Positions 3 to 25,494 of a DNA stretch of 42,353 nt are shown in pieces. The notes beneath the pieces are model-generated. The model searched no databases. It was not told the origin of the DNA and worked only from the letters and a program-made list of their open reading frames with translations. Source of the stretch: a virus (Duplodnaviria; Heunggongvirae; Uroviricota; Caudoviricetes); IMG/VR virus record IMGVR_UViG_2654587736_000008. One strand, given 5' to 3'. The translations under genes and the position numbers were made by a program. The stretch's first letter is position 1; the number at the start of each line of letters is the position of its first letter.

Positions 3-48
3 CTGTTTATCCATACAGTTAAAAATAATACTGTATACAAACACAGTA
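3..48 (+). promoter_or_regulatory. Two tandem LexA (SOS) boxes upstream of the dinI-like gene
   Basis: CTGT-N8-ACAG at 3-18 (CTGTttatccatACAG) and a near-consensus TACTGTatacaaacACAGTA at 29-48, immediately upstream of the ATG at 62. Confidence 0.65.
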
Positions 49-61
49 TAGAGGGACTTTT

Positions 62-310
62 ATGCGTATTGAAATCTGTATAGCCAAAGAAAAAATGACT
101 AAAATGCCAACCGGTGCTGTGGATGCGTTAAAGGAAGAATTAACCCGACGCATCAGTAAACGTTATGACGATGTAGAGGTGATCGTAAAAGCCACCAGCA
201 ACGATGGCCTTTCTGTTACGCGCACCGCCGATAAAGATTCAGCTAAAACTTTTGTTCAGGAAACTCTGAAAGATACCTGGGAGTCTGCTGACGAGTGGTT
301 TGTTCACTAA
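62..310 (+). CDS. dinI: DinI-like DNA-damage-inducible protein (prophage-encoded homologue)
   Basis: 82-aa ORF; N-terminal MRIEI.IAK and C-terminal [15 protein letters not shown] match the DinI family pattern; SD GAGGGA upstream; SOS boxes upstream. Confidence 0.8.
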
Positions 311-378: not shown

Positions 379-416
379 CCGCAGTATCCTATCATGACAA
401 GTTACTGCGGCTTTTT
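379..416 (+). terminator. Intrinsic terminator candidate downstream of dinI-like gene
   Basis: Stem CCGCAGTA(379-386)/TACTGCGG(403-410) followed by CTTTTT. Confidence 0.45.
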
Positions 417-483
417 ACTTTTTATATTTAACGGATCAACATCCAGATCAGCAGACACGCCACCACCGGCACAGCAAAATCCA

Positions 484-714
484 TCAGGCTTGCCACATCC
501 CACGCGCGCGGATCAAAACCGCCCCACCACGCATATTCATTCGCTTGCCATGCCCGAACATTTCAATCCAGCGATATTCTGCCTGGGTGTGTTCACGCGC
601 AATGAAGAACGTACAACCGGCTATCGCTCCGTAAGCCCAGTTTCCGGTAAAAAGACCAACCAGTATCTGCGCAGCCACAGCACAAAGTGCATGAAGTAAG
701 GGGCTTATATCCAT
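484..714 (-). CDS. Small membrane protein, hypothetical (76 aa)
   Basis: ORF with strong SD (AAAGGAGG) 6 nt upstream of ATG at 714; hydrophobic segment LLHALCAVAAQILVGLFTGNWAYGAIAGCTFFIA; last gene of the tail-fibre operon. Confidence 0.5.
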   Translation of the reverse strand: MDISPLLHALCAVAAQILVGLFTGNWAYGAIAGCTFFIAREHTQAEYRWIEMFGHGKRMNMRGGAVLIRARGMWQA

Positions 715-726
715 TATTTCCTCCTT

Positions 727-1005
727 TCAGCTCCATTCCCGAAGCGGTGTTTCCAGCTCCACGACATAATCAGAGAATACAGAAACATCAAACAAGTCAT
801 CAAGAATGCGAATGTTGACAAAATAACCGTCATTCCGGACACAGACAGGTTCTCCCTCTTCTGTTACCCCTGTTTCTGTGTAGGTGAAACCAATTTCATC
901 GACTAACAGTTTATTCTGGAGGTCTTCATCCTCCTCCCAGTCAAGAGATGACAGGAAGGCCTTAAACTGCAGTTTGTCATGAAACTTCAAAGTTAAATCT
1001 TTCAT
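727..1005 (-). CDS. Hypothetical acidic protein, possible tail-fibre assembly/chaperone partner (92 aa)
   Basis: ATG overlaps the stop of the tail-fibre ORF (ATGA); acidic composition; no recognisable Tfa motif. Confidence 0.45.
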   Translation of the reverse strand: MKDLTLKFHDKLQFKAFLSSLDWEEDEDLQNKLLVDEIGFTYTETGVTEEGEPVCVRNDGYFVNIRILDDLFDVSVFSDYVVELETPLREWS

Positions 1006-2330
1006 ACGACCTCTTTTAATTGCCTGTCATTTAATTCTTTATGCCATATGCGGAAATTGCGAATATGGCCAAACAGATGTCGTTCTCCAGTATTCGTCTG
1101 CCCTCCAAATCGGATATTTTTATCAGCGGTCACACCATTATATTCACAATAAACTTCATTAACCGCTTTACCATTTGTCACCACATGAAAGTGACCATCA
1201 GCTTTTGCAATACATCCAAATGTGGTTTTCTCTGCAAATACATCTGTCGCTGCGCTATTAACATACAAGCCTGAAGGGTTTGACAGACTCATATATAACT
1301 TACCACTACCTCTGTTGATTGCTGCAATTGCTGATTGCCCGGTATTGGCTGCTGCTATATCCCACACGCGGGGTGCGGCGTTTGGTGCAATATCCCAGTT
1401 TTTATGAATCTCAAGTAAAAAAGTAAATGGTAACTTATAAAGATTATTTCTGGTGGGGATACTAACCAAATCACTGGCTCTTGTCGTTGCGCTGCCTCCT
1501 GAAATAATAAATGATGATACACACGGCCCATTCTCTACTTGTGGGGTGGCAAGATAAATATAGTCACCAGATACTGTTGCCCCACCCTGCTCAGGAGAAT
1601 ACTGTATCTGAGAGCCTATTTTTAACTCACCATCAATTGCCTGAATCGTTGCCTCTGCAAAAATCCAGCCCGTGGTCTTATCCTTCCTGACTCGTGCCGT
1701 AATTCTGCCGGCAGCACCACCTGTCATATTAATTTCAAGCGTTTGCGTATCAATGTACGCATCGCCAAGAAAAGTTGTTGCACTACCATCATACTTATCA
1801 AACCGTATACGTAACCTTACCTGTCGTTCTGTTTTAAAACGGCATGAGGTTGTCACGTACTTGTTATCGCCTGAGACATCAACTGACTTTGTTGCAGCAA
1901 TTGATGCCATATTAATAGCCGAAGTTTGCCCAACCAGAGAATCGTTGCAGACAAACTTTCCATAAGTAAAACCAAAACTATCCGTCCCGGTTTCGGGCAC
2001 ATCCATGTTTGATGACTTCCCCCAGCTGGCTGGACTTTCCGAATTGAGCATGTAGTTCGTTCTTTGTCCCTCAATAAGCAGGCCATCACACTCAAATCGC
2101 GGCTCATTAATTTCCGCCGTTTTCAGTTCGCCAGATTTGTTGATATATGTTGCCGTTGATGCGCGACTGAAATTAACCTGTTTATCACTGGCGACCTGAA
2201 CCACATCGTCACCAATAGCTATTTTTTTATAGCCCGGAGAAAAACCCGCAATCATATCCAGTGAATCGTTAAACGGTATCCACACATCAGGCAGCGGCGG
2301 CACTATATTCGCATAGGGCTCTGCAGTCAC
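1002..2330 (-). CDS. Side tail fibre protein, C-terminal receptor-binding portion (frame separated from N-terminal part by a -1 frameshift)
   Basis: 442-aa ORF; the same frame is open upstream to about 2502 and encodes an Ala/Thr/Lys-rich continuation of the Stf-like shaft. Confidence 0.7.
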   Translation of the reverse strand: MTAEPYANIVPPLPDVWIPFNDSLDMIAGFSPGYKKIAIGDDVVQVASDKQVNFSRASTATYINKSGELKTAEINEPRFECDGLLIEGQRTNYMLNSESPASWGKSSNMDVPETGTDSFGFTYGKFVCNDSLVGQTSAINMASIAATKSVDVSGDNKYVTTSCRFKTERQVRLRIRFDKYDGSATTFLGDAYIDTQTLEINMTGGAAGRITARVRKDKTTGWIFAEATIQAIDGELKIGSQIQYSPEQGGATVSGDYIYLATPQVENGPCVSSFIISGGSATTRASDLVSIPTRNNLYKLPFTFLLEIHKNWDIAPNAAPRVWDIAAANTGQSAIAAINRGSGKLYMSLSNPSGLYVNSAATDVFAEKTTFGCIAKADGHFHVVTNGKAVNEVYCEYNGVTADKNIRFGGQTNTGERHLFGHIRNFRIWHKELNDRQLKEVV

Positions 2331-3061
2331 TTCCGCTGCGGCTTCTGCGCGGTCTGCCGCCTTTTCAGCTCGTGTCGCTGCCGACAGAGCCTCATCCTTT
2401 TTCTGCCCGGCCTTTGTTGCGTCTGCTGCAGCCTCCCGCGCTTTTGTGGTGGCGACTCCGGCATTTTCAGCGGCTGACTCTGCATTACGGCGGGAAGCTC
2501 TTCACTGTCTGCGGAGGCTTCTTCTGACGCACGGGCATTTGTCTCTGAACGTTCTGCCGCTGTTGCTGCGTTTTGTGCGGCTGTTTTTGAAGAAGCTGCC
2601 GCTTTCGCGCTGTTACCTGCATTCGTCTCTGATGTTTTCGCCGCGTTCCTGGACGATGCCGCTGCTGTTTCTGATTTCTTTGCTGCCGCTGCGCTCTGAG
2701 AGGCGGCTTCAGCGTTGCGTGCCACATCCTCCACCATTACCTCAAAACGACGCAATGCCTCCGGCATGACATCCTCTTCCGTCATGGCACCCAGAAAATC
2801 ATTCAGCGTCCCCGGCTTAGAATCCTCATACACGGTGATGGTCCCGGCATGTGAAGGCGGAAAACCTTCAACCAGCAGGATAACGCTGTACTGGCCATAC
2901 TCGACATCCATGCTGTAACGTCCGGCTTCATCCGGATTTTCTGAGGCCACCGTGTTCACCACCACCGTGCTGCTGGTCCGTCTGGCCTTCAGCACAATGG
3001 TGCAGTTCTGTACTGGTTTTCCTGTGCCATCTTTAAGCACGCCAGAAATTTTTACTGTCAT
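2327..3061 (-). CDS. stf: Side tail fibre protein, N-terminal portion (lambda Stf-like); reading frame breaks near 2495-2505
   Basis: N-terminus MTVKISGVLKDGTGKPVQNCTIVLKARR...GRYSMDVEYGQYSV closely resembles lambda Stf; the last ~60 residues of this ORF are basic low-complexity, consistent with out-of-frame translation. Confidence 0.7.
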   Translation of the reverse strand: MTVKISGVLKDGTGKPVQNCTIVLKARRTSSTVVVNTVASENPDEAGRYSMDVEYGQYSVILLVEGFPPSHAGTITVYEDSKPGTLNDFLGAMTEEDVMPEALRRFEVMVEDVARNAEAASQSAAAAKKSETAAASSRNAAKTSETNAGNSAKAAASSKTAAQNAATAAERSETNARASEEASADSEELPAVMQSQPLKMPESPPQKRGRLQQTQQRPGRKRMRLCRQRHELKRRQTAQKPQRK

Positions 3062-3075
3062 ACTTTTCCACCAAT

Positions 3076-3106
3076 AAAAAAAGCCCGCAGCAGTGACGCC
3101 ACGGGC
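3076..3106 (-). terminator. Terminator-like hairpin between lom and stf
   Basis: On minus strand GCCCG...CGGGC followed by TTTTTTT; the loop is long, so only moderate confidence. Confidence 0.35.
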
Positions 3107-3212
3107 TTCAGGACAGTGTAACTTTACGTTTCCTCAAACGCAGTTCACTCCATAAGGCGGATGAACCTGCGTATCATAACAATATTTACAGAAGATAAAT
3201 CGGCGTCTGTTG

Positions 3213-3812
3213 TCAGAAACGGTATCCGATACCAACAATAAATGCATCCGTTCGCCAGTCGCCACTACCGGAACCTTCATAAGCAAGGTCAATGGTCACG
3301 GATTCGGTCGGGTTAAACTGCACGCCAGCCCCCCACGCCAGAGACGTGTTGCTGTGGCGACCGTCATCACTTCCGGTCAGCACATCGTGCGTTTTCCCCT
3401 TGTTGTCAGTTACGCGGAGATAATCCCCGGAGAAAGTCGACACACGGCTGTAAGCCACACCCGCCATCGAATACGCGCTGAACCATTCATTCACGCGTAC
3501 AGACGGCCCCGCCATCACGCTGAACCAGCGGTTACGCACGGAATCTTCATGCCAGCGGGTATCGCTGTAGTGCGTTTTTTGCTCATCCTCAGCATTGGCA
3601 TAACTGAAGGACGTAATCAGCCCCAGCGCGTCCGTAAACTCATAACGGTATTTCACGTTAATCCCGTTCAGATTATCGCTGCCGGGAGCGTTCGTACGGG
3701 CATGAAGATACCCCGCGCTCAGTGTGGACTGATGTTCAGACGCCCATGCAGGCGCACCGGATACGGACAGACAGATGGCTGCGGACAAAATGACTGCACA
3801 AACTTTACGCAT
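3213..3812 (-). CDS. lom: Lom outer-membrane protein (Ail/Lom/PagC family)
   Basis: 199 aa; signal peptide then SEHQSTLSAGYLHA...GINVKYRYEF...GIGYRF, near-identical in pattern to lambda Lom. Confidence 0.9.
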   Translation of the reverse strand: MRKVCAVILSAAICLSVSGAPAWASEHQSTLSAGYLHARTNAPGSDNLNGINVKYRYEFTDALGLITSFSYANAEDEQKTHYSDTRWHEDSVRNRWFSVMAGPSVRVNEWFSAYSMAGVAYSRVSTFSGDYLRVTDNKGKTHDVLTGSDDGRHSNTSLAWGAGVQFNPTESVTIDLAYEGSGSGDWRTDAFIVGIGYRF

Positions 3813-3879: not shown

Positions 3880-6800
3880 TCAGCTGATACTGATGCCTGC
3901 GGTGGCTTTCTTCATCACCACAACCAGCAAATCGCTGATACTTGCTGTGGGATACCAGTTATTCACCAGCCATGCTGACACCGAAAACTCCAGCGTCATG
4001 TGGCCGCGACCAGCTGGCATATCAATAACACCACTGTAAATCAGCGTATTATCCAGCGCGGTACGGTTATAAATTTCAGCACCGTTTTTCCGTACTATCA
4101 GGCGGCATGACGAATAAATATCGTTATTCTCCCGCTCATGTTTAGCGCCGCTGAATGCCACCGCCGGAATAACAATCTGCCGGTCAAACGGCTGATCGTC
4201 ATAAACCCTGACGGTGATGGTCCCTGATGGCCACCGTTCCGGTGCACGGGAGTCCCGGGGGAAAGCTTTGCCCACTGTTTTAACGAGATCGCCTTCAATC
4301 TGGTTGGCGGACAATTTTCCCAGAACCCGACAGTTCTCGTTAATCGTGACGTTGTTGAGCGTCCCGGAGTTCGCATTCACGTTACCGCTGATATCGGCAT
4401 TTTTCGCCGTCAGCCGCCCGTCCGGTGTCAGGGAAAATGCCGGAGGATTACCGCCGCTGGTAATGGTCGGAGCCGTCAGGCGTTTCAGGAACACGTCGTT
4501 CATGAATATCTGATCGCCCTGACCAACAAACATCGGCTTTGTGTTGCCATTCGCAGGATTAATCATCGCAATCCGGTCAGCAGCCAGAAGCACCTGACTC
4601 TGCATACCTGCTGGCGTATTCTCAATACCGGCTCCGATACCCGCAATATAAAGGCGTCCGTCCTTCATCTGCTGCAGTTTCACGGCCCACATGCTGTTCA
4701 GGTTATTATTTGTATCAACCTGAACTTTCTGTATCTGCTGGATTGCCGCACTCTGGTCTTCCAGTTTTTTATTGACGGTCTGCGTGATTTCATTGCTGAC
4801 ATTCGTAATGGACGTCCTGATTTCAGCCAGGTCCGGCGCAAGCTGACCGTTATCAATCTGCGTCCACAACTCCTGGGCCAGATGTGTTTTCCCGATTTCT
4901 CCTTTGAAAAAATCCAGGTAACCTTCCGCATCATCGCTCGCCCGACCGACAGCCTCCACGAATGCCGATTTGCCAACGGTGTTCACACTGCGAACGTAAA
5001 AATAATAATCATGGCCCGGTTTGATATTGATACTGGCGGCTATCCAGTACAGCGCCGTACCAAGATAGCGGGCTGTGGTTTCAACCTGCCTGATATCGGT
5101 AATCCGCTTTTCCGAGAACCAGAACTCAAACTGTACCGTCGGGTCATAAACAGCAAGATGCGGCGTGGCGGTTATCTGAAAATAGCCCGGCGTCAGCTCA
5201 ATCCTCGACGGTGCTGCCGGTGCGGCAATCCGGAACGATACCGACGCCGGATCGCCCTGCTGCCCCCGGGCATTTACCGCCCGGACTGTCAGCCTGTAGT
5301 TCCCCAGCGCCAGTTGCGTGAAGCGGTATGTGGTTTCCGTCGTCCGGGCCGTGCTGACCAGTCGCTCACTGCCGTCGTCCGCTGTTACGGTCAGACGGAG
5401 CAGGAAGCTCACGCCCTTCACCACCTTCGGTGTGTCCCATCGCGCCAGCACCTGATATTCCCCGCTGTCTGCAGTGACTTCGGCGGTCAGGTGCTGCACT
5501 GCTGGCGGCGTGACACCATTCACCGTGCCGCTCTGGTCACCGTCAAAGTGCGCCCCGTTATCCACGATGGCTTCTTTCTCCGGTACATGCTGCACGGCGG
5601 TGATGGCATACGTGCCGTCATCGTTCTCACGGATACTCACGCAGCGGAACAGGCGCTGGCGCAGCGTCGGCAGCTTCAGCCCCCACACGCTGTATTCTGC
5701 AACGCCGTCAGGAACACGGCTCACTTTCACCTTCACGCCGTCGGTGACGGACTGGACCTCCACGCTGACCGGATTACCCTGACCGTCAACCAGGCTTATC
5801 AGCGTGGTACCGGAGGATGGCAGCGTGATTTCACGGTCGAGCGTCAGCGTCCGGGTCTGGCTGTTCACCGCCAGCACGCGACCACCGGTGCTGATACCGG
5901 CATAGTCATCATCGCAGATTTCAATGACATCGCCCGGTACATGGCGAAGCCCTTCAGCACCCACGCTGAAATCCACGGTCTGCGTCTCCAGCAGTTCCGT
6001 TTTAATCAGCCACAGCCCGGCGCGGTGTGCCTGCCCCCGGCTGGTACAGCCAAAGGCATCCATCTTCGTGACGTTACGACCGTAACGGGCAATGGCCTGC
6101 GTGTCCTCCACAAGCTCTGTTGCCGTTTCCCAGCCGTTATCCGGGTCAGTCCAGTTCACCTCAACGGCATTATGGCGGTCCTTCAGGGCGCTGAAACTGT
6201 AGCGGAACGGCGCGCCATCATCCGGCATCACCACATTACTGCGGTTATAGGTCCACACCTTATCTGATGGTCGGTCCTGCACGAACGTCAGCGTCTGCCC
6301 GTTCCATACCGGCATACAGCGCATCGCCGAGCAGAAATCACTGAGCACATCCCACGCCTTGCGCTGTGTGGTCAGGTAAGCGTTACAGGTGATGCGCGGC
6401 TCCGTGCCGCCAAAGCCGTCCGGCACCGACTGGTCGCAATTCTGGCCGATGACATACAGCGCCCATTTATCCACATCCGCCGCACCAAGACGTTTCCCCA
6501 TGCCGTAGCGCGGATGGGTCAGCATATCCCACAGACACCAGGCCATGTTGTTGCTGTATGCCGGTTTTAACGTTCCGTCCCAGATACCGCTGTATTGCCG
6601 CGTCTGCGGGTTATAGTTCGACGGCACCTGCAGAATGCGCCCGCGAAGATGATAATTACGGCTCACCTGCTGGCTGCCGAACTGCTCCGAGTCCACCTGC
6701 ACGCCAACCAGTGCCGTGTTCGGGTAGCACTGTTTCACATCGATGATTTCGGTGTATGACGACCAGAGCGTTTTGTTCTGCAGCTGGTCTGTGGTGCTGT

Positions 6801-7359
6801 CCGGCGTCATTCTGCGCATCCGGATATTAAACGGGCGCGGCGGCAGGTTATCCACCACCACCGAGGCCAGATACTGCGAGGTGGTTTTGCCCTTAATGGT
6901 GATGTCTTTTTCCGTCACCCAGCCACCGTTACGCTGGATCTGAACCAGCAGGCGGACTTCCGACGGATTCCTGTCCCCCTTTGAGGTGGTTTCCACCAGT
7001 GCCTGCACACCGAAGGTAAAGCGCAGACGGTCGATGTTTGCCGACGTGATGGTCCGGGTGATCGGCGTGTCATATTTCACTTCCGTACCCAGCACCGTCT
7101 CGGAACCGGAGGATTCAAACCCCTCCGGCGGAGTCTGCTCCTGCTCACCTGCCCGGAACACCACCGTGACGCCGGATATATTGGTATTCCCCTCACTGTC
7201 CAGCACCGGCGTACTGTTCAGCAGCACGCTTTTTAACCCATCCACCGGACCTTCAACCGGCCCTTCGCTGATGGCATCGATCACACTCAGCAACTGCGTG
7301 GACTTCAGGTTGTCCTTCGCTTCGCGCGGGGTATGCCCCTTACTGCTGCCTTTACCCAT
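3880..7359 (-). CDS. J: Host specificity / central tail fibre protein J
   Basis: 1159 aa; N-terminus [34 protein letters not shown] and extensive collinearity with lambda J; C-terminal ~250 aa diverge. Confidence 0.95.
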
Positions 7360-23289: not shown

Positions 23290-23808
23290 CTACTTCTTCA
23301 GAAATGATTCGATGAATTCACGTCGAGGATGACGATAGTTCAGAATATCTTCTGGCATCCTCATAAAGCGGTTGTTGCCGTCTTTGGCAGTAACAAAACA
23401 GCTGTGAACTCCGCAGACATCCGTTTTGATCGTGTCGCTATACTCAAAAAGCAACTGAGCCATCTTCTCTTGCCATTCTGGAGGCATAGCCTCCATGAAT
23501 ACTCGCGGCATCACGCAGAACGACGCATGCGTAAGACCAAACCACAGTTGCAGGTCTTTACGATATTCTTCATCCATCGTCTTTACCTTTGTTGCAATAA
23601 AAAGCCCCGCGAATGCGAGGCTAAATCCTAGTGTTTGTGATGACTGGCTCTTATCTAAACGCAGCCCCTTACCGCGCGCCAAATGCTCAACTTTAAGCAT
23701 CAGCAATGAGATGTTTAATCTGGATTCACTCCAGAAGTGATCACCACCCTGTCTACAGAGCCAGATGTGAAGGATGATGAGTAAAATTATCTCTATCATC
23801 GAAGGCAT
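23290..23808 (-). CDS. Hypothetical protein in the bor position (moron candidate), N-terminal hydrophobic segment
   Basis: 172-aa ORF after Rz; relatively AT-rich; no recognisable family. Confidence 0.45.
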
Positions 23809-24263
23809 TGCGTCCTGATATATTCCTGAAGCGTTCTCAGTGCTGTCTGGTCTCTGATGATTCCGTCCCGGATACCGAGAACGTTTCGTCCAGCAACTGG
23901 AGAGAGTTCGACGGTGGCATCATTGCCCATGCCGGAGGCGCTGGAGGTTTCGGCTGAGGATGGCACAGAGCATTTTCCTTTGACGAGCACCCGACCACCA
24001 TTATCAAGCTTGCGCCGAAGAGCATCATTTTTAGCTTTCGCATCAGCCAACTCCTTCGTGTATTTAGCATCGAGTACATCAGCAGCACGCTGGCGTTGCT
24101 GCATGTCAGTAATGGTGGCGGTCGCCTGCTTCAGCTCACTGACTTTTTTATCACGCTGTTCTTTGTAGGCGATGGCGTTATCACGGTAATGATTGACCGC
24201 CCACGACAGGCAGACGATGGTGCAGATAACCAGAGTATAAATAATCGCTGCGACTCTGCTCAC
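23796..24263 (-). CDS. Rz: Spanin inner-membrane subunit Rz (i-spanin)
   Basis: N-terminal TM ([19 protein letters not shown]), coiled-coil body, C-terminal Cys; GTG start overlapping endolysin stop (TTG at 24278 also possible). Confidence 0.8.
23837..24043 (-). CDS. Rz1: Spanin outer-membrane lipoprotein Rz1 (o-spanin), embedded in Rz in the +1 frame
   Basis: [21 protein letters not shown] lipobox followed by Pro-rich [11 protein letters not shown]. Confidence 0.8.
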
Positions 24264-24793
24264 TGATCTATCCCCCAACAGGCTAATGCGCTTTCCTGGT
24301 CACGACGAATAACCTGTCCATAGCAGTTATTTGAACGTATGCGGCAATCGCGCCCACCATCTTTTATCCACCAGCGAATCGCCTCGCATGCGCCCTTACG
24401 ATCACCGGCATTCAGCCGCTTATAAAACGTCGACGGGAAACACTTACCGGGGCCAATGTTATAGGGACAGAATGACGCTATACCCGCTTTCTGTGGTTCG
24501 GTCAGTGGTACTTTAATATTGCGCTCTACCCATGCCAGCGCCTTATCACGTTCAATAGCGTTAACCTGGTCGCATTTTTCCTTCGACAGCTTCATTCCCG
24601 GTATGACGGGCTTACCATCCACCATTGTGGCACCCCGACAGATGGTCCAGATGCCGGCCCCATCGCGGTATGCCGTTGTGTGGTTACCTTCTTTTTCATC
24701 CAGAAACTGGTCGAGAATATCAGGCGCGGGCGCACCGACGGCAATCAGTGCCAGAACGGCAGCCGACAGGCCGTATCTGATTTTTGCGTTCAT
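24260..24793 (-). CDS. R: SAR endolysin (T4-lysozyme-like, GH24)
   Basis: 177 aa; N-terminal signal-anchor-release-like segment ([16 protein letters not shown]), then lysozyme-like body resembling phage 21 R. Confidence 0.8.
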
Positions 24794-24856: not shown

Positions 24857-25207
24857 TTAAGGTTGTGATTCCGGAGGAGTCTTCAGAGAACCAGTAATTC
24901 TTCCTGGTAGCTTTCCTTTGTAGGTTATCCACACATTCTGCGCCTCTAAAATTACGGGGCGCTTTTCCGGCGACTGCTCATCCCCTTCACATAACCCGGC
25001 AGCAACATCCAGGAAGACCTGTCTGATGCTCCTTCTGGCTGCTGCCTCATAAAACTCCAGCGCGGCACCTTCAACACGGTCCAGCGAGATGTCCAGGTCA
25101 AAAATTTCACCGTCAAAGCGTTTTTTGTCCCGTAACGCTAAAGTTACCGTAACTTTATTCTCAAAATTGCGGATCCCTTTCACAATCACTTCATAGTTTT
25201 GAGTCAT
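24857..25207 (-). CDS. Hypothetical protein inserted between holin and endolysin (116 aa)
   Basis: SD GGGGAGAG upstream of ATG 25207, 4 nt after the holin stop; soluble, acidic; no recognisable family. Confidence 0.55.
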   Translation of the reverse strand: MTQNYEVIVKGIRNFENKVTVTLALRDKKRFDGEIFDLDISLDRVEGAALEFYEAAARRSIRQVFLDVAAGLCEGDEQSPEKRPVILEAQNVWITYKGKLPGRITGSLKTPPESQP

Positions 25208-25211
25208 TGAA

Positions 25212-25427
25212 TTACTCTCCCCGTGCAGCCTTACGCTTGTCTTCTTTAATCTTGAAATAAAGGTTTGTCAGATACGTCAGCAAGCCAAATACCAGACTAC
25301 CCAGCACACCTATTGCCGCCCACTGTGAGGGCGTGACTTTATCGAGCAACTGTAAAAACCAGTACCCGGCACTACCTGCTGAGGTGCCATAGGCGACACC
25401 CGTTGTTAACTTATCCATGGATTTCAT
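25212..25427 (-). CDS. S: Pinholin, phage 21 S-like (class II holin) with dual-start motif
   Basis: [29 protein letters not shown]...[22 protein letters not shown]; two Met codons (M1, M4) as in S21 holin/antiholin. Confidence 0.85.
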
Positions 25428-25462
25428 AACCCCACCTCGCAGATGCGGGTGCTGTGTAATGG

Positions 25463-25488
25463 AAATAAAAAGGCCACCTGACGTGGCC
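25463..25488 (-). terminator. Intrinsic terminator between methyltransferase gene and holin
   Basis: Minus strand GGCCAC-GTCAG-GTGGCC followed by TTTTTATTT. Confidence 0.65.
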
Positions 25489-25494
25489 ACCAGA

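What the first reader, a model, noticed from the sequence alone, without database searches (positions are those of the whole stretch)
484..1005. Two tightly coupled small genes beyond the tail fibre, one a membrane protein
In place of a recognisable Tfa-type assembly protein, the fibre gene is ATGA-coupled to a 92-aa acidic protein, followed by a 76-aa hydrophobic protein with a near-consensus SD. The position matches where lambdoid phages carry receptor-blocking exclusion genes (such as cor), but this protein has no lipobox, so any such role would be through a different mechanism.
Basis: inference. Interest (0 to 1): 0.55.

Follow-up and report, generated by a model that had tools for sequence, protein, structure and literature searches.

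The report
Two accessory genes behind a tail fibre
Behind the side tail fibre gene of this lambda-like prophage lie a small fibre-partner gene and a broken copy of a widespread, uncharacterised inner-membrane protein gene that follows the host-recognition genes of many unrelated phages.

Summary

**92-aa ORF (727-1005, minus strand).**
- It is intact and acidic (pI 4.1), and it overlaps the fibre stop codon as ATGA.
- It belongs to phrog_1361, a family of unknown function.
- In 166 of 170 relatives it overlaps the stop codon of a homologous lectin-type fibre head.
- It has no Tfa sequence or fold.
- It is most likely that fibre head's dedicated assembly partner.

**76-aa ORF (484-714).**
- It is not a native protein. 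It is the first 61 codons of a conserved 95-aa, three-helix inner-membrane protein (phrog_1443).
- A private 1-bp deletion near position 530 cuts it short. Adding one base back gives the mEp460_4F5 protein exactly.
- The fibre gene carries its own private 1-bp deletion near 2497, so this module is probably dead.

**The membrane family.**
- It has no Pfam, NCBIfam, PADLOC or PDB match.
- It comprises at least 2,466 protein clusters and occurs in 35% of complete E. coli genomes.
- It sits directly behind tail fibre or tailspike genes in lambdoid, P2-like, P1-like and P22-like phages.
- It is also a lone chromosomal gene in Aeromonas and sphingomonads.

That pattern argues against a receptor-specific, Cor-like blocker. 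It favours a generic envelope function expressed late, together with the fibre. The function itself remains untested.

The parts
727..1005 (-). Intact 92-aa acidic cytoplasmic protein of family phrog_1361, the fibre-head partner.
   Evidence: It matches phrog_1361 at 8e-42 over residues 1-91. The AlphaFold2 model has pLDDT 89.9 with a beta-alpha-alpha-beta4 layout. In 166 of 170 homologues the start overlaps the stop codon of a homologous fibre gene.
1002..1005 (-). ATGA stop-start overlap between the fibre gene and the 92-aa gene.
   Evidence: Read directly from the sequence. Across related loci there are 106 overlaps of 4 nt and 60 overlaps of 1 nt.
428..714 (-). Full span of the membrane-protein gene (phrog_1443 family), here a pseudogene. 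It would encode 95 aa if one base were restored.
   Evidence: Three-frame translation, alignment to phage 21, mEp460_4F5 and the GU2018 prophage, and restoration of the missing base. The AlphaFold2 model of an intact homologue has pLDDT 93.7 with three helices.
484..714 (-). The 76-aa ORF as it reads in the window: 61 native codons followed by 15 out-of-frame codons.
   Evidence: The phrog_1443 match covers profile positions 1-63 of 97 only.
530..531 (.). Site of the 1-bp deletion (GG to G on the + strand) that frameshifts the membrane gene.
   Evidence: None of 3,893 matching places in 5,426 complete E. coli genomes shares the deletion; the best match is 131 query bases against 132 subject bases.
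720..725 (-). AGGAGG Shine-Dalgarno sequence, 5 nt upstream of the membrane-gene ATG.
   Evidence: Read from the sequence.
1002..3061 (-). Side tail fibre gene stf, split into 244-aa and 442-aa ORFs by a 1-bp deletion near 2497. The head carries GTA_spike_fiber and Laminin_G_3 domains.
   Evidence: Pfam phage_tail_N matches the N-terminal part and Laminin_G_3 the C-terminal part. The two ORFs match phrog_1419 positions 1-188 and 351-793. NCBIfam GTA_spike_fiber matches the phage 21 orthologue. The repaired gene gives 686 aa, 97.5% identical to phage 21 Stf.
2497..2498 (.). Site of the 1-bp deletion (CC to C) in stf.
3080..3109 (-). Terminator-like hairpin between lom and stf. It places stf, the 92-aa gene and the membrane gene downstream of a terminator in the late transcript.
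   Evidence: The equivalent site in phage 21 is annotated as a terminator.

Best explanation
The two ORFs are the accessory genes that travel with a mobile side-tail-fibre head cassette of the phage 21 / mEp460 type.

**1. The 92-aa protein.**
- It is a cytoplasmic, acidic partner of the lectin-like fibre head, made by stop-start coupling from the fibre message.
- It most likely acts as a trans-acting folding or assembly factor. It would fill the role that Tfa has for lambda-type fibres, but with an unrelated fold. This step is inferred.

**2. The second ORF.**
- It is a frameshift-truncated copy of a conserved 95-100-aa inner-membrane protein with three helices.
- The most conserved part is a Trp-rich loop (RExTQAEYRWI ... 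NMPWWGGxD), predicted to face the periplasm.
- The intact family is a separate module. It sits at the 3' end of receptor-binding protein genes in many unrelated phages, is co-transcribed with them late in infection, and also exists as a lone chromosomal gene.
- I infer that it acts on a conserved host envelope process at the inner membrane when fibres are being made.
- The most plausible benefit to the phage is generic protection against superinfection or against progeny re-adsorbing, rather than blocking of one receptor. This step is speculative.

**3. State of the module here.** Both stf and the membrane gene carry private 1-bp deletions in this window. The module is probably non-functional.
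For: **Shown: the frameshifts**
- Both deletions were found by alignment, and restoring one base repairs each gene.
- No complete E. coli genome shares the deletion in the membrane gene.
- In 133 non-identical prophage loci the fibre is truncated in 6, the membrane gene in 1, and both in none.

**Shown: the 92-aa family**
- 166 of 170 copies overlap the upstream stop codon. 167 of 168 upstream ORFs are homologous across the whole 440-aa fibre head, at 28-100% identity.
- A P1-like Leclercia element has two copies, one behind each Laminin_G_3 fibre gene.
- Comamonas prophages carry the same trio of fibre head, 92-aa-like gene and membrane gene (hhalign probability 98.7%; fibre-head HMM hits of 1e-14 to 1e-21).
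- The 92-aa gene (42.7% GC) shares its composition with the fibre head (43.6%). The fibre N-terminal part is 56.0% GC and the membrane gene 53.0%.
- Pairwise identity of the 92-aa protein correlates with that of the fibre head at r about 0.5. For the membrane protein the values are 0.29 (Pearson) and 0.18 (Spearman).

**Shown: the membrane family**
- It comprises at least 2,466 clusters, all about 100 aa and all named hypothetical.
- It occurs in 1,906 of 5,426 complete E. coli genomes, with up to 7 copies per genome.
- Of 43 sequence clusters on viral contigs, 36 have an ORF of at least 350 aa within 700 nt upstream on the same strand, often overlapping the membrane gene.
- Of 33 such upstream ORFs scanned, Pfam matched pectate-lyase tailspike (7), P2-type fibre (5), Tail_spike_N (5), Peptidase_S74 (5), P22 head-binding domain (3) and Laminin_G_3 (3). 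PHROGs matched one tail-spike family in 15 and one tail-fibre family in 13.
- Chromosomal copies outside prophages occur in Aeromonas and in sphingomonad-type genomes and metagenome contigs.
- No promoter-like site lies upstream of either small gene, and a terminator lies upstream of stf.
- The stf N-terminal part and the membrane gene are conserved DNA flanks (85-99% identity) around a variable cassette.
Against: **Against the chaperone role**
- There is no direct evidence for it.
- Co-divergence with the fibre head is only moderate. Some recombinants pair a 92-aa gene 95-96% identical in DNA to the window's copy with a fibre head only about 44% identical in protein.
- A Chelativorans fibre-head homologue is followed directly by the membrane gene, with no 92-aa-like gene between them.

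**Against a defined role for the membrane protein**
- No function has been tested. The position behind receptor-binding protein genes may only reflect a permissive insertion site.
- Chromosomal homologues show that the protein has a role independent of phages.
- Topology rests only on the positive-inside rule, on basic C-terminal tails and on a TMHMM note in the phage 21 record.

**Against a dead module**
- The two deletions could be sequencing errors. Both lie in 2-base runs.
Confidence: 0.5

Rival explanations
1. The membrane protein is a host-benefit moron, that is, a lysogenic conversion gene. On this view it is a captured copy of a bacterial housekeeping envelope protein that helps the lysogen, for example with envelope stress or surface glycan biogenesis. 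It would lie behind fibre genes only because that is a permissive insertion site.
For: - Chromosomal homologues lie in core-genome contexts: pirin to RIO1 in Aeromonas; after ligA, between ftsA and ftsZ, and overlapping a dsbA-like gene in sphingomonad-type contigs.
- Its GC content differs from that of the neighbouring cassette.
- Its neighbours in these phages are classic morons: lom, dinI, and sitABCD in phage 21.
- The gene usually stays intact in prophages whose fibre gene is broken.
- It is under purifying selection.
Against: - No promoter-like site lies upstream in the window, and a terminator precedes stf.
- In most phage loci the gap to the upstream receptor-binding protein gene is -4 to +50 nt. 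That implies co-translation or co-transcription with a late gene.
- The same position recurs in at least five phage architectures.
Confidence: 0.25
2. The membrane protein is a lysis-related protein, such as a holin, antiholin or timing factor.
For: - Its size and three-helix layout, with a probable N-out, C-in topology and a basic C-terminal tail, resemble class I holins.
- In the P1-like element it lies just upstream of a lydA-like gene and lydB.
- In one phage the slot behind the 92-aa-like gene is occupied by a Pfam holin.
Against: - The window has its own complete lysis cassette elsewhere: an S21-type holin at 25212-25490, a lysozyme at 24260-24793 and an Rz gene at 23796-24278.
- No holin family in Pfam or PHROGs matches it.
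- Identity of 43-68% across alpha-, beta- and gamma-proteobacteria, a long invariant loop, and housekeeping chromosomal copies are all unlike holins.
Confidence: 0.08
3. The 92-aa protein is not an assembly factor. It could instead be a structural distal component or adaptor of the fibre, or a protein unrelated to fibre function that is merely linked to it.
For: - One allele can sit next to quite different fibre heads.
Against: - Strict one-to-one adjacency and stop-start coupling hold in 166 of 170 cases and across three bacterial classes.
- The gene is duplicated along with each fibre gene in the P1-like element.
- A structural role is not excluded by any test made here.
Confidence: 0.2
4. 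Both 1-bp deletions are sequencing or assembly errors. The window would then really encode an intact 686-aa fibre and an intact 95-aa membrane protein.
For: - Both deletions are losses of one base in a 2-base run.
- Both are unique to this sequence.
- No locus among 133 has both genes disrupted.
Against: - The runs are only two bases long.
- Elsewhere in the window, the alignment to mEp460_4F5 shows no isolated frameshifts within conserved late genes. Indels there are clustered, largely offset one another, or lie at gene ends.
- Loss of stf through a frameshift is common in related prophages.
Confidence: 0.25

Closest known systems
Tail fibre assembly proteins of the Tfa / P2 G / Mu U type (Pfam Caudo_TAP)
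   Same: The 92-aa gene lies immediately downstream of the fibre gene and is expressed with it. It tracks the fibre head through horizontal exchange.
Cor (phi80, N15, HK022, T1) and T5 Llp, the receptor-blocking exclusion lipoproteins
   Same: Like them, the membrane protein is a small envelope protein encoded next to the receptor-binding protein gene. (What Cor and Llp do, and where their genes lie, is from my own knowledge.)
   Different: It has no lipobox and appears to be an inner-membrane helical protein rather than an outer-membrane lipoprotein. Its sequence does not vary with the fibre. It follows many kinds of receptor-binding protein and has housekeeping chromosomal homologues.
Inner-membrane superinfection exclusion proteins (P22 SieA, T4 Imm, HK97 gp15)
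   Same: These are also small inner-membrane proteins encoded by phages, and some lie within tail gene regions. They are a possible functional analogy (own knowledge, and PMC10883804 for SieA).
   Different: There is no sequence relationship: nothing in Pfam, PHROGs or PADLOC. Those proteins are narrowly distributed and expressed from the prophage. This family spans several bacterial classes and looks late-expressed.
Serotype-conversion genes placed next to tailspike genes (P22 gtrABC, Sf6 oac, epsilon15 genes 21 and 22)
   Same: They are also membrane proteins encoded beside glycan-directed receptor-binding protein genes. In three loci the membrane gene follows a P22-type tailspike with a Head_binding domain.
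   Different: There is no GtrA or acyltransferase match. It is a single 95-aa protein with no partner enzyme. It is co-oriented with and coupled to the receptor-binding protein gene, rather than being a separate operon.
Class I holins (lambda S105 type)
   Same: About 100 aa with three membrane helices and a basic C-terminus.
   Different: It is not in the lysis cassette, it is highly conserved, and it has a 30-residue invariant loop and chromosomal orthologues.
The lambda PaPa stf frameshift (orf-401 / orf-314)
   Same: A 1-bp frameshift splits the side tail fibre gene of a lambdoid phage into two ORFs (the lambda case is from my own knowledge).
   Different: The position differs and the fibre head type differs. 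Here the downstream membrane gene is also hit.

Membership tests
phrog_1361 (92-aa protein) | Full-length match to the family profile | tested here: met
   E 8.1e-42, residues 1-91 against profile positions 1-91 of 92.
phrog_1443 (membrane protein) | Full-length match to the family profile | tested here: not met
   The 76-aa ORF matches only profile positions 1-63 of 97. The remainder is in another frame. The repaired gene is identical to the mEp460_4F5 protein. This is therefore a disrupted member.
Tfa-type tail fibre assembly protein (Caudo_TAP) | Sequence match to the Caudo_TAP / Tfa family | tested here: not met
   The only Pfam hit for the 92-aa protein is LUD_dom, at E 0.064 and below its cut-off. 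NCBIfam gives nothing.
Tfa-type tail fibre assembly protein (Caudo_TAP) | Tfa-like fold | tested here: not met
Tfa-type tail fibre assembly protein (Caudo_TAP) | Required for fibre trimer folding or attachment | not testable with these tools
   This needs co-expression and deletion experiments.
Cor / Llp receptor-blocking lipoproteins | Signal peptide with a lipobox cysteine | tested here: not met
   The N-terminus is MDISPLLHALCAV. Positions -3 to -1 before Cys11 are H-A-L, and there is no basic N-terminal region.
Cor / Llp receptor-blocking lipoproteins | Sequence match to a Cor or Llp family | tested here: not met
   The PHROGs and Pfam scans return only phrog_1443 and weak noise.
Cor / Llp receptor-blocking lipoproteins | Blocks adsorption through one specific receptor | not testable with these tools
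   Indirect evidence argues against it. The protein does not vary with the fibre head, and it follows many receptor-binding protein folds.
Holins | Match to a holin family and location in a lysis cassette | tested here: not met
   No holin family matches. The window's S21-type holin, lysozyme and Rz genes lie at 23.8-25.5 kb.
Known anti-phage defence proteins (PADLOC-DB) | Match to any defence-system model | tested here: not met
   Neither protein, nor two divergent membrane-family members, gave a hit at E up to 1.
GtrA-like or other glycan-modification membrane proteins | Pfam match (GtrA, Acyl_transf_3 and similar) | tested here: not met
   The intact protein and its Comamonas and Aeromonas homologues have no Pfam match.

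The most novel reading that the evidence does not exclude
The 95-aa membrane protein would represent an unrecognised, widespread class of phage accessory factor linked to receptor-binding proteins. On this reading it is a conserved bacterial inner-membrane protein that tailed phages of every morphotype have recruited and express together with their fibres or tailspikes. It would alter a conserved envelope step, such as handling of surface-glycan precursors or entry of DNA across the inner membrane. The result would be generic exclusion of incoming or re-adsorbing phages by a mechanism unrelated to Cor, Llp, SieA or Imm. The 92-aa protein would be a new, non-Tfa class of fibre chaperone.
Probability: 0.2. 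Interest if true: 0.75.

Novelty: new variant of a known kind. Interest (0 to 1): 0.48.

Why it matters
- **Engineering.** Fibre and tailspike cassettes are what phage engineers swap to change host range. Knowing which small downstream genes must travel with a fibre head decides whether a chimeric fibre folds.
- **A large unexplained family.** The membrane protein is present in about a third of complete E. coli genomes, often in several copies. It occurs in at least 2,466 protein clusters across Proteobacteria and has no Pfam family and no known function. It also shows one of the most consistent gene-order associations with receptor-binding genes that I could measure here.
- **Possible new mechanism.** If it acts on the envelope during late infection, it would be a new mechanism. 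It is directly testable in phage 21 or mEp460.
- **This window.** The practical message is more modest. The fibre module of this prophage is damaged, and the 76-aa protein should not be annotated as a native product.

Tried and rejected
**Database searches that gave nothing useful**
- Pfam, NCBIfam and PADLOC gave no family for either protein.
- HMM searches of PDB sequences gave nothing.

**Structure comparisons**
- BFVD returned only uncharacterised phage proteins.
- The afdb50 library was not available.

**Other leads**
- A riboswitch search upstream of 13 chromosomal copies found only tRNAs.
- Neighbours of the chromosomal copies (porin, PFOR, metE-like gene, urea transporter, pirin, ligA, ftsZ, dsbA) show no common partner.
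- Literature searches found no paper on either family.
- The Tai/Ati tail-assembly-interference system was read and set aside. Its genes lie upstream of the packaging module and are unrelated.

**Ideas tested and dropped**
- I checked whether the 92-aa protein co-varies with the extreme C-terminus of the fibre. The correlation is moderate across all sub-regions and is not localised.
- I rejected the idea that the 101-aa ORF at 394-699 (+) is a gene. It is the antisense shadow of the membrane gene.
I used the 93%-identical homologue P0050 instead.

Full report
**Setting**

The window is a lambdoid prophage whose late genes lie on the minus strand. The order is:
- J (3880-7359)
- lom (3213-3812)
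- a side tail fibre gene (1002-3061)
- the two small ORFs
- a convergent DinI-family gene (62-310, plus strand)

The region is 98-99% identical to phage mEp460_4F5 and phage 21, and the same module is found in about 1,900 complete E. coli genomes.

**Checking the observation**

These points hold:
- The 92-aa ORF (727-1005) starts with an ATG that overlaps the fibre stop codon as ATGA.
- It is acidic, with pI 4.1.
- The next ORF starts 12 nt further on, behind a consensus AGGAGG.
- That ORF has no lipobox, and no Tfa-type gene is present.

The 76-aa ORF, however, is not a native protein:
- It matches only positions 1-63 of the 97-position phrog_1443 profile.
- The missing C-terminus is readable in another frame.
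- An alignment with three relatives shows that one G of a GG pair is missing near position 530.
- Restoring that base gives a 95-aa protein identical to that of mEp460_4F5.
- No complete E. coli genome shares the deletion.

The fibre gene is also split, into 244-aa and 442-aa ORFs, by a second private deletion (CC to C) near 2497. The repaired gene encodes 686 aa and is 97.5% identical to phage 21 Stf.

The remainder of the window, aligned to mEp460_4F5, has no isolated frameshift within conserved late genes. Real decay of the fibre module is therefore somewhat more likely than sequencing error, but I cannot prove it. In 133 non-identical related loci the fibre is truncated in 6, the membrane gene in 1, and both in none.

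**The 92-aa protein**

It belongs to phrog_1361, a family of unknown function. Word-seeded searching finds 48 relatives in Escherichia and Shigella. A profile search of 1.84 billion representative proteins finds 77, most of them about 90-100 aa.

The AlphaFold2 model is confident (pLDDT 89.9) and is a small alpha/beta domain. Structural comparison gave nothing decisive:
- BFVD returns only uncharacterised phage proteins.

The context is informative:
- In 166 of 170 copies the start overlaps the stop codon of the upstream ORF, by 4 nt in 106 cases and by 1 nt in 60.
- 167 of 168 upstream ORFs are homologous to the window's fibre head over its full 440 aa, at 28-100% identity.
- A P1-like element in Leclercia has two such fibre genes, each followed by its own copy.
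- Comamonas prophages have the same arrangement. There the small protein is a homologue (hhalign probability 98.7%), and the upstream ORF matches a fibre-head HMM.
- In the window, the fibre head (43.6% GC) and the 92-aa gene (42.7%) share a composition. It differs from the fibre N-terminal part (56.0%) and from the membrane gene (53.0%).

I conclude that the fibre head and the 92-aa gene form one transferable unit, and that the small protein is the head's partner. An assembly or chaperone role is the most economical reading, but it is inferred. Co-divergence is only moderate (r about 0.5). Some recombinants pair nearly the same 92-aa allele with a head that is only about 44% identical.

**The membrane protein**

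The intact protein is modelled with pLDDT 93.7 as three helices: residues 4-23, 26-52 and 74-94.

Conserved features:
- Among close relatives many positions are invariant.
- Across the whole family the conserved core is RExTQAEYRWI ... G.G.R.NMPWWGG.D ... W.
- Alphaproteobacterial members have long arginine-rich C-terminal tails. That predicts a cytoplasmic C-terminus and a periplasmic conserved loop. This topology is a prediction only.

The family is large and unnamed:
- A profile of distant members finds at least 2,466 clusters, all about 100 aa and all called hypothetical protein.
- It has no match in Pfam, NCBIfam, PADLOC or PDB sequences.

Its position is strikingly constant. It lies just behind:
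- the Laminin_G_3 fibre cassette in lambdoid phages
- the second fibre cassette in a P1-like element
- a P2 H-type fibre in P2-like prophages
- a J-like tip protein in a Comamonas prophage

Of 43 sequence clusters on viral contigs, 36 have a large same-strand ORF within 700 nt upstream, often overlapping the membrane gene. These upstream ORFs are tailspikes and fibres of many folds: pectate-lyase, Peptidase_S74, Tail_spike_N, P22 head-binding domain, P2 fibre and Laminin_G_3.

The protein does not vary with the fibre. It stays 84-91% identical while E. coli fibre heads range from 35% to 95% identity. At the DNA level, the membrane gene and the stf N-terminal part form conserved flanks around the variable cassette.

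The family is also a lone chromosomal gene outside prophages, in Aeromonas and in sphingomonad-type genomes and metagenome contigs. The contexts there are varied and belong to the core genome.

**How it most likely works**

- Shown: the membrane gene is a module separate from the fibre head and its partner. It is under purifying selection.
- Shown: it is arranged to be transcribed, and often translated, together with a late receptor-binding protein gene. No promoter-like site lies upstream, and a terminator precedes stf.
- Inferred: it performs a generic activity at the inner membrane that is useful when receptor-binding proteins are being made.
- A receptor-specific blocker of the Cor type is unlikely. 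The protein does not vary with the fibre, it follows many kinds of receptor-binding protein, and it has homologues outside phages.
- Generic exclusion or protection of progeny is my preferred guess, at roughly one chance in four. A host-benefit moron is a close rival. A lysis role is unlikely, because the window has a complete S21-type lysis cassette elsewhere.

**Comparison with known systems**

The pair resembles the classical arrangement of a fibre gene, its assembly factor and an exclusion gene. It fails every sequence and fold test for Tfa, Cor/Llp, holins, GtrA and known defence proteins (see the membership table). Both families are catalogued in PHROGs but uncharacterised. I found no paper on either.

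**Verdict**

- Both are real genes in an ordinary location.
For the second gene it is wrong in one important respect: the ORF is a truncated pseudogene or a sequencing artefact.
- The family-level pattern behind the second gene is the interesting part, and it is open to experiment. This particular copy is damaged.

Noticed in passing
window 3-18 and 31-46, with 62-310 (+): Two perfect LexA boxes (CTGT-N8-ACAG) lie just upstream of a DinI-family gene (Pfam DinI, 1.1e-19). This looks like an SOS-inducible moron at the prophage end, convergent with the fibre module.
   Followed up: partly
window 1002-3061 (-), deletion near 2497: The side tail fibre gene is split by a 1-bp deletion into 244-aa and 442-aa ORFs, much like the stf frameshift of laboratory lambda. 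Several related E. coli prophages have stf annotated in two pieces, broken at other positions.
   Followed up: yes
window about 2330 (inside stf): There is a sharp composition break inside stf: 56.0% GC in the N-terminal part and 43.6% in the head. This marks the left edge of a swapped cassette. The right edge is the boundary between the 92-aa gene and the membrane gene.
   Followed up: yes
window 389-432 (+): A hairpin (GCCGCAGTA...TACTGCGGC) followed by a T-rich run on the plus strand looks like the dinI terminator. On the minus strand no T-run follows it, so late transcription through the membrane gene may not stop here.
   Followed up: no
L001 (phage 21) 445-3894: Phage 21 carries the sitABCD iron/manganese transporter immediately beyond the membrane gene, in the opposite orientation. 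This shows that the junction is a moron insertion site.
   Followed up: no
L079 6391-6957 (P2-like E. coli prophage): A resolvase/invertase gene directly follows the membrane gene, between the fibre genes and the sheath gene. I did not check whether an invertible fibre segment is present.
   Followed up: no
L006 3918-4958 and L009 4286-4990 (Escherichia ruysiae and Escherichia sp.); also 77 of 80 IMG/VR loci: Many E. coli-type loci carry a second short fibre gene between the 92-aa-like gene and the membrane gene. In the two loci I scanned, it has a Peptidase_S74 intramolecular chaperone domain.
   Followed up: partly
window 25212-25490, 24857-25207, 24260-24793, 23796-24278 (-): The lysis cassette is of the phage 21 type: an S21 pinholin family gene, a DUF1327 gene, a phage lysozyme and Rz.
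   Followed up: partly
profile search hits P0191, P0196 and P0213-P0218: Large proteins of 655-2,744 aa match the central beta-hairpin of the 92-aa profile (positions about 33-67) in 3-8 repeated stretches. This is probably similarity to a repeat motif rather than homology. I did not examine it.
   Followed up: no
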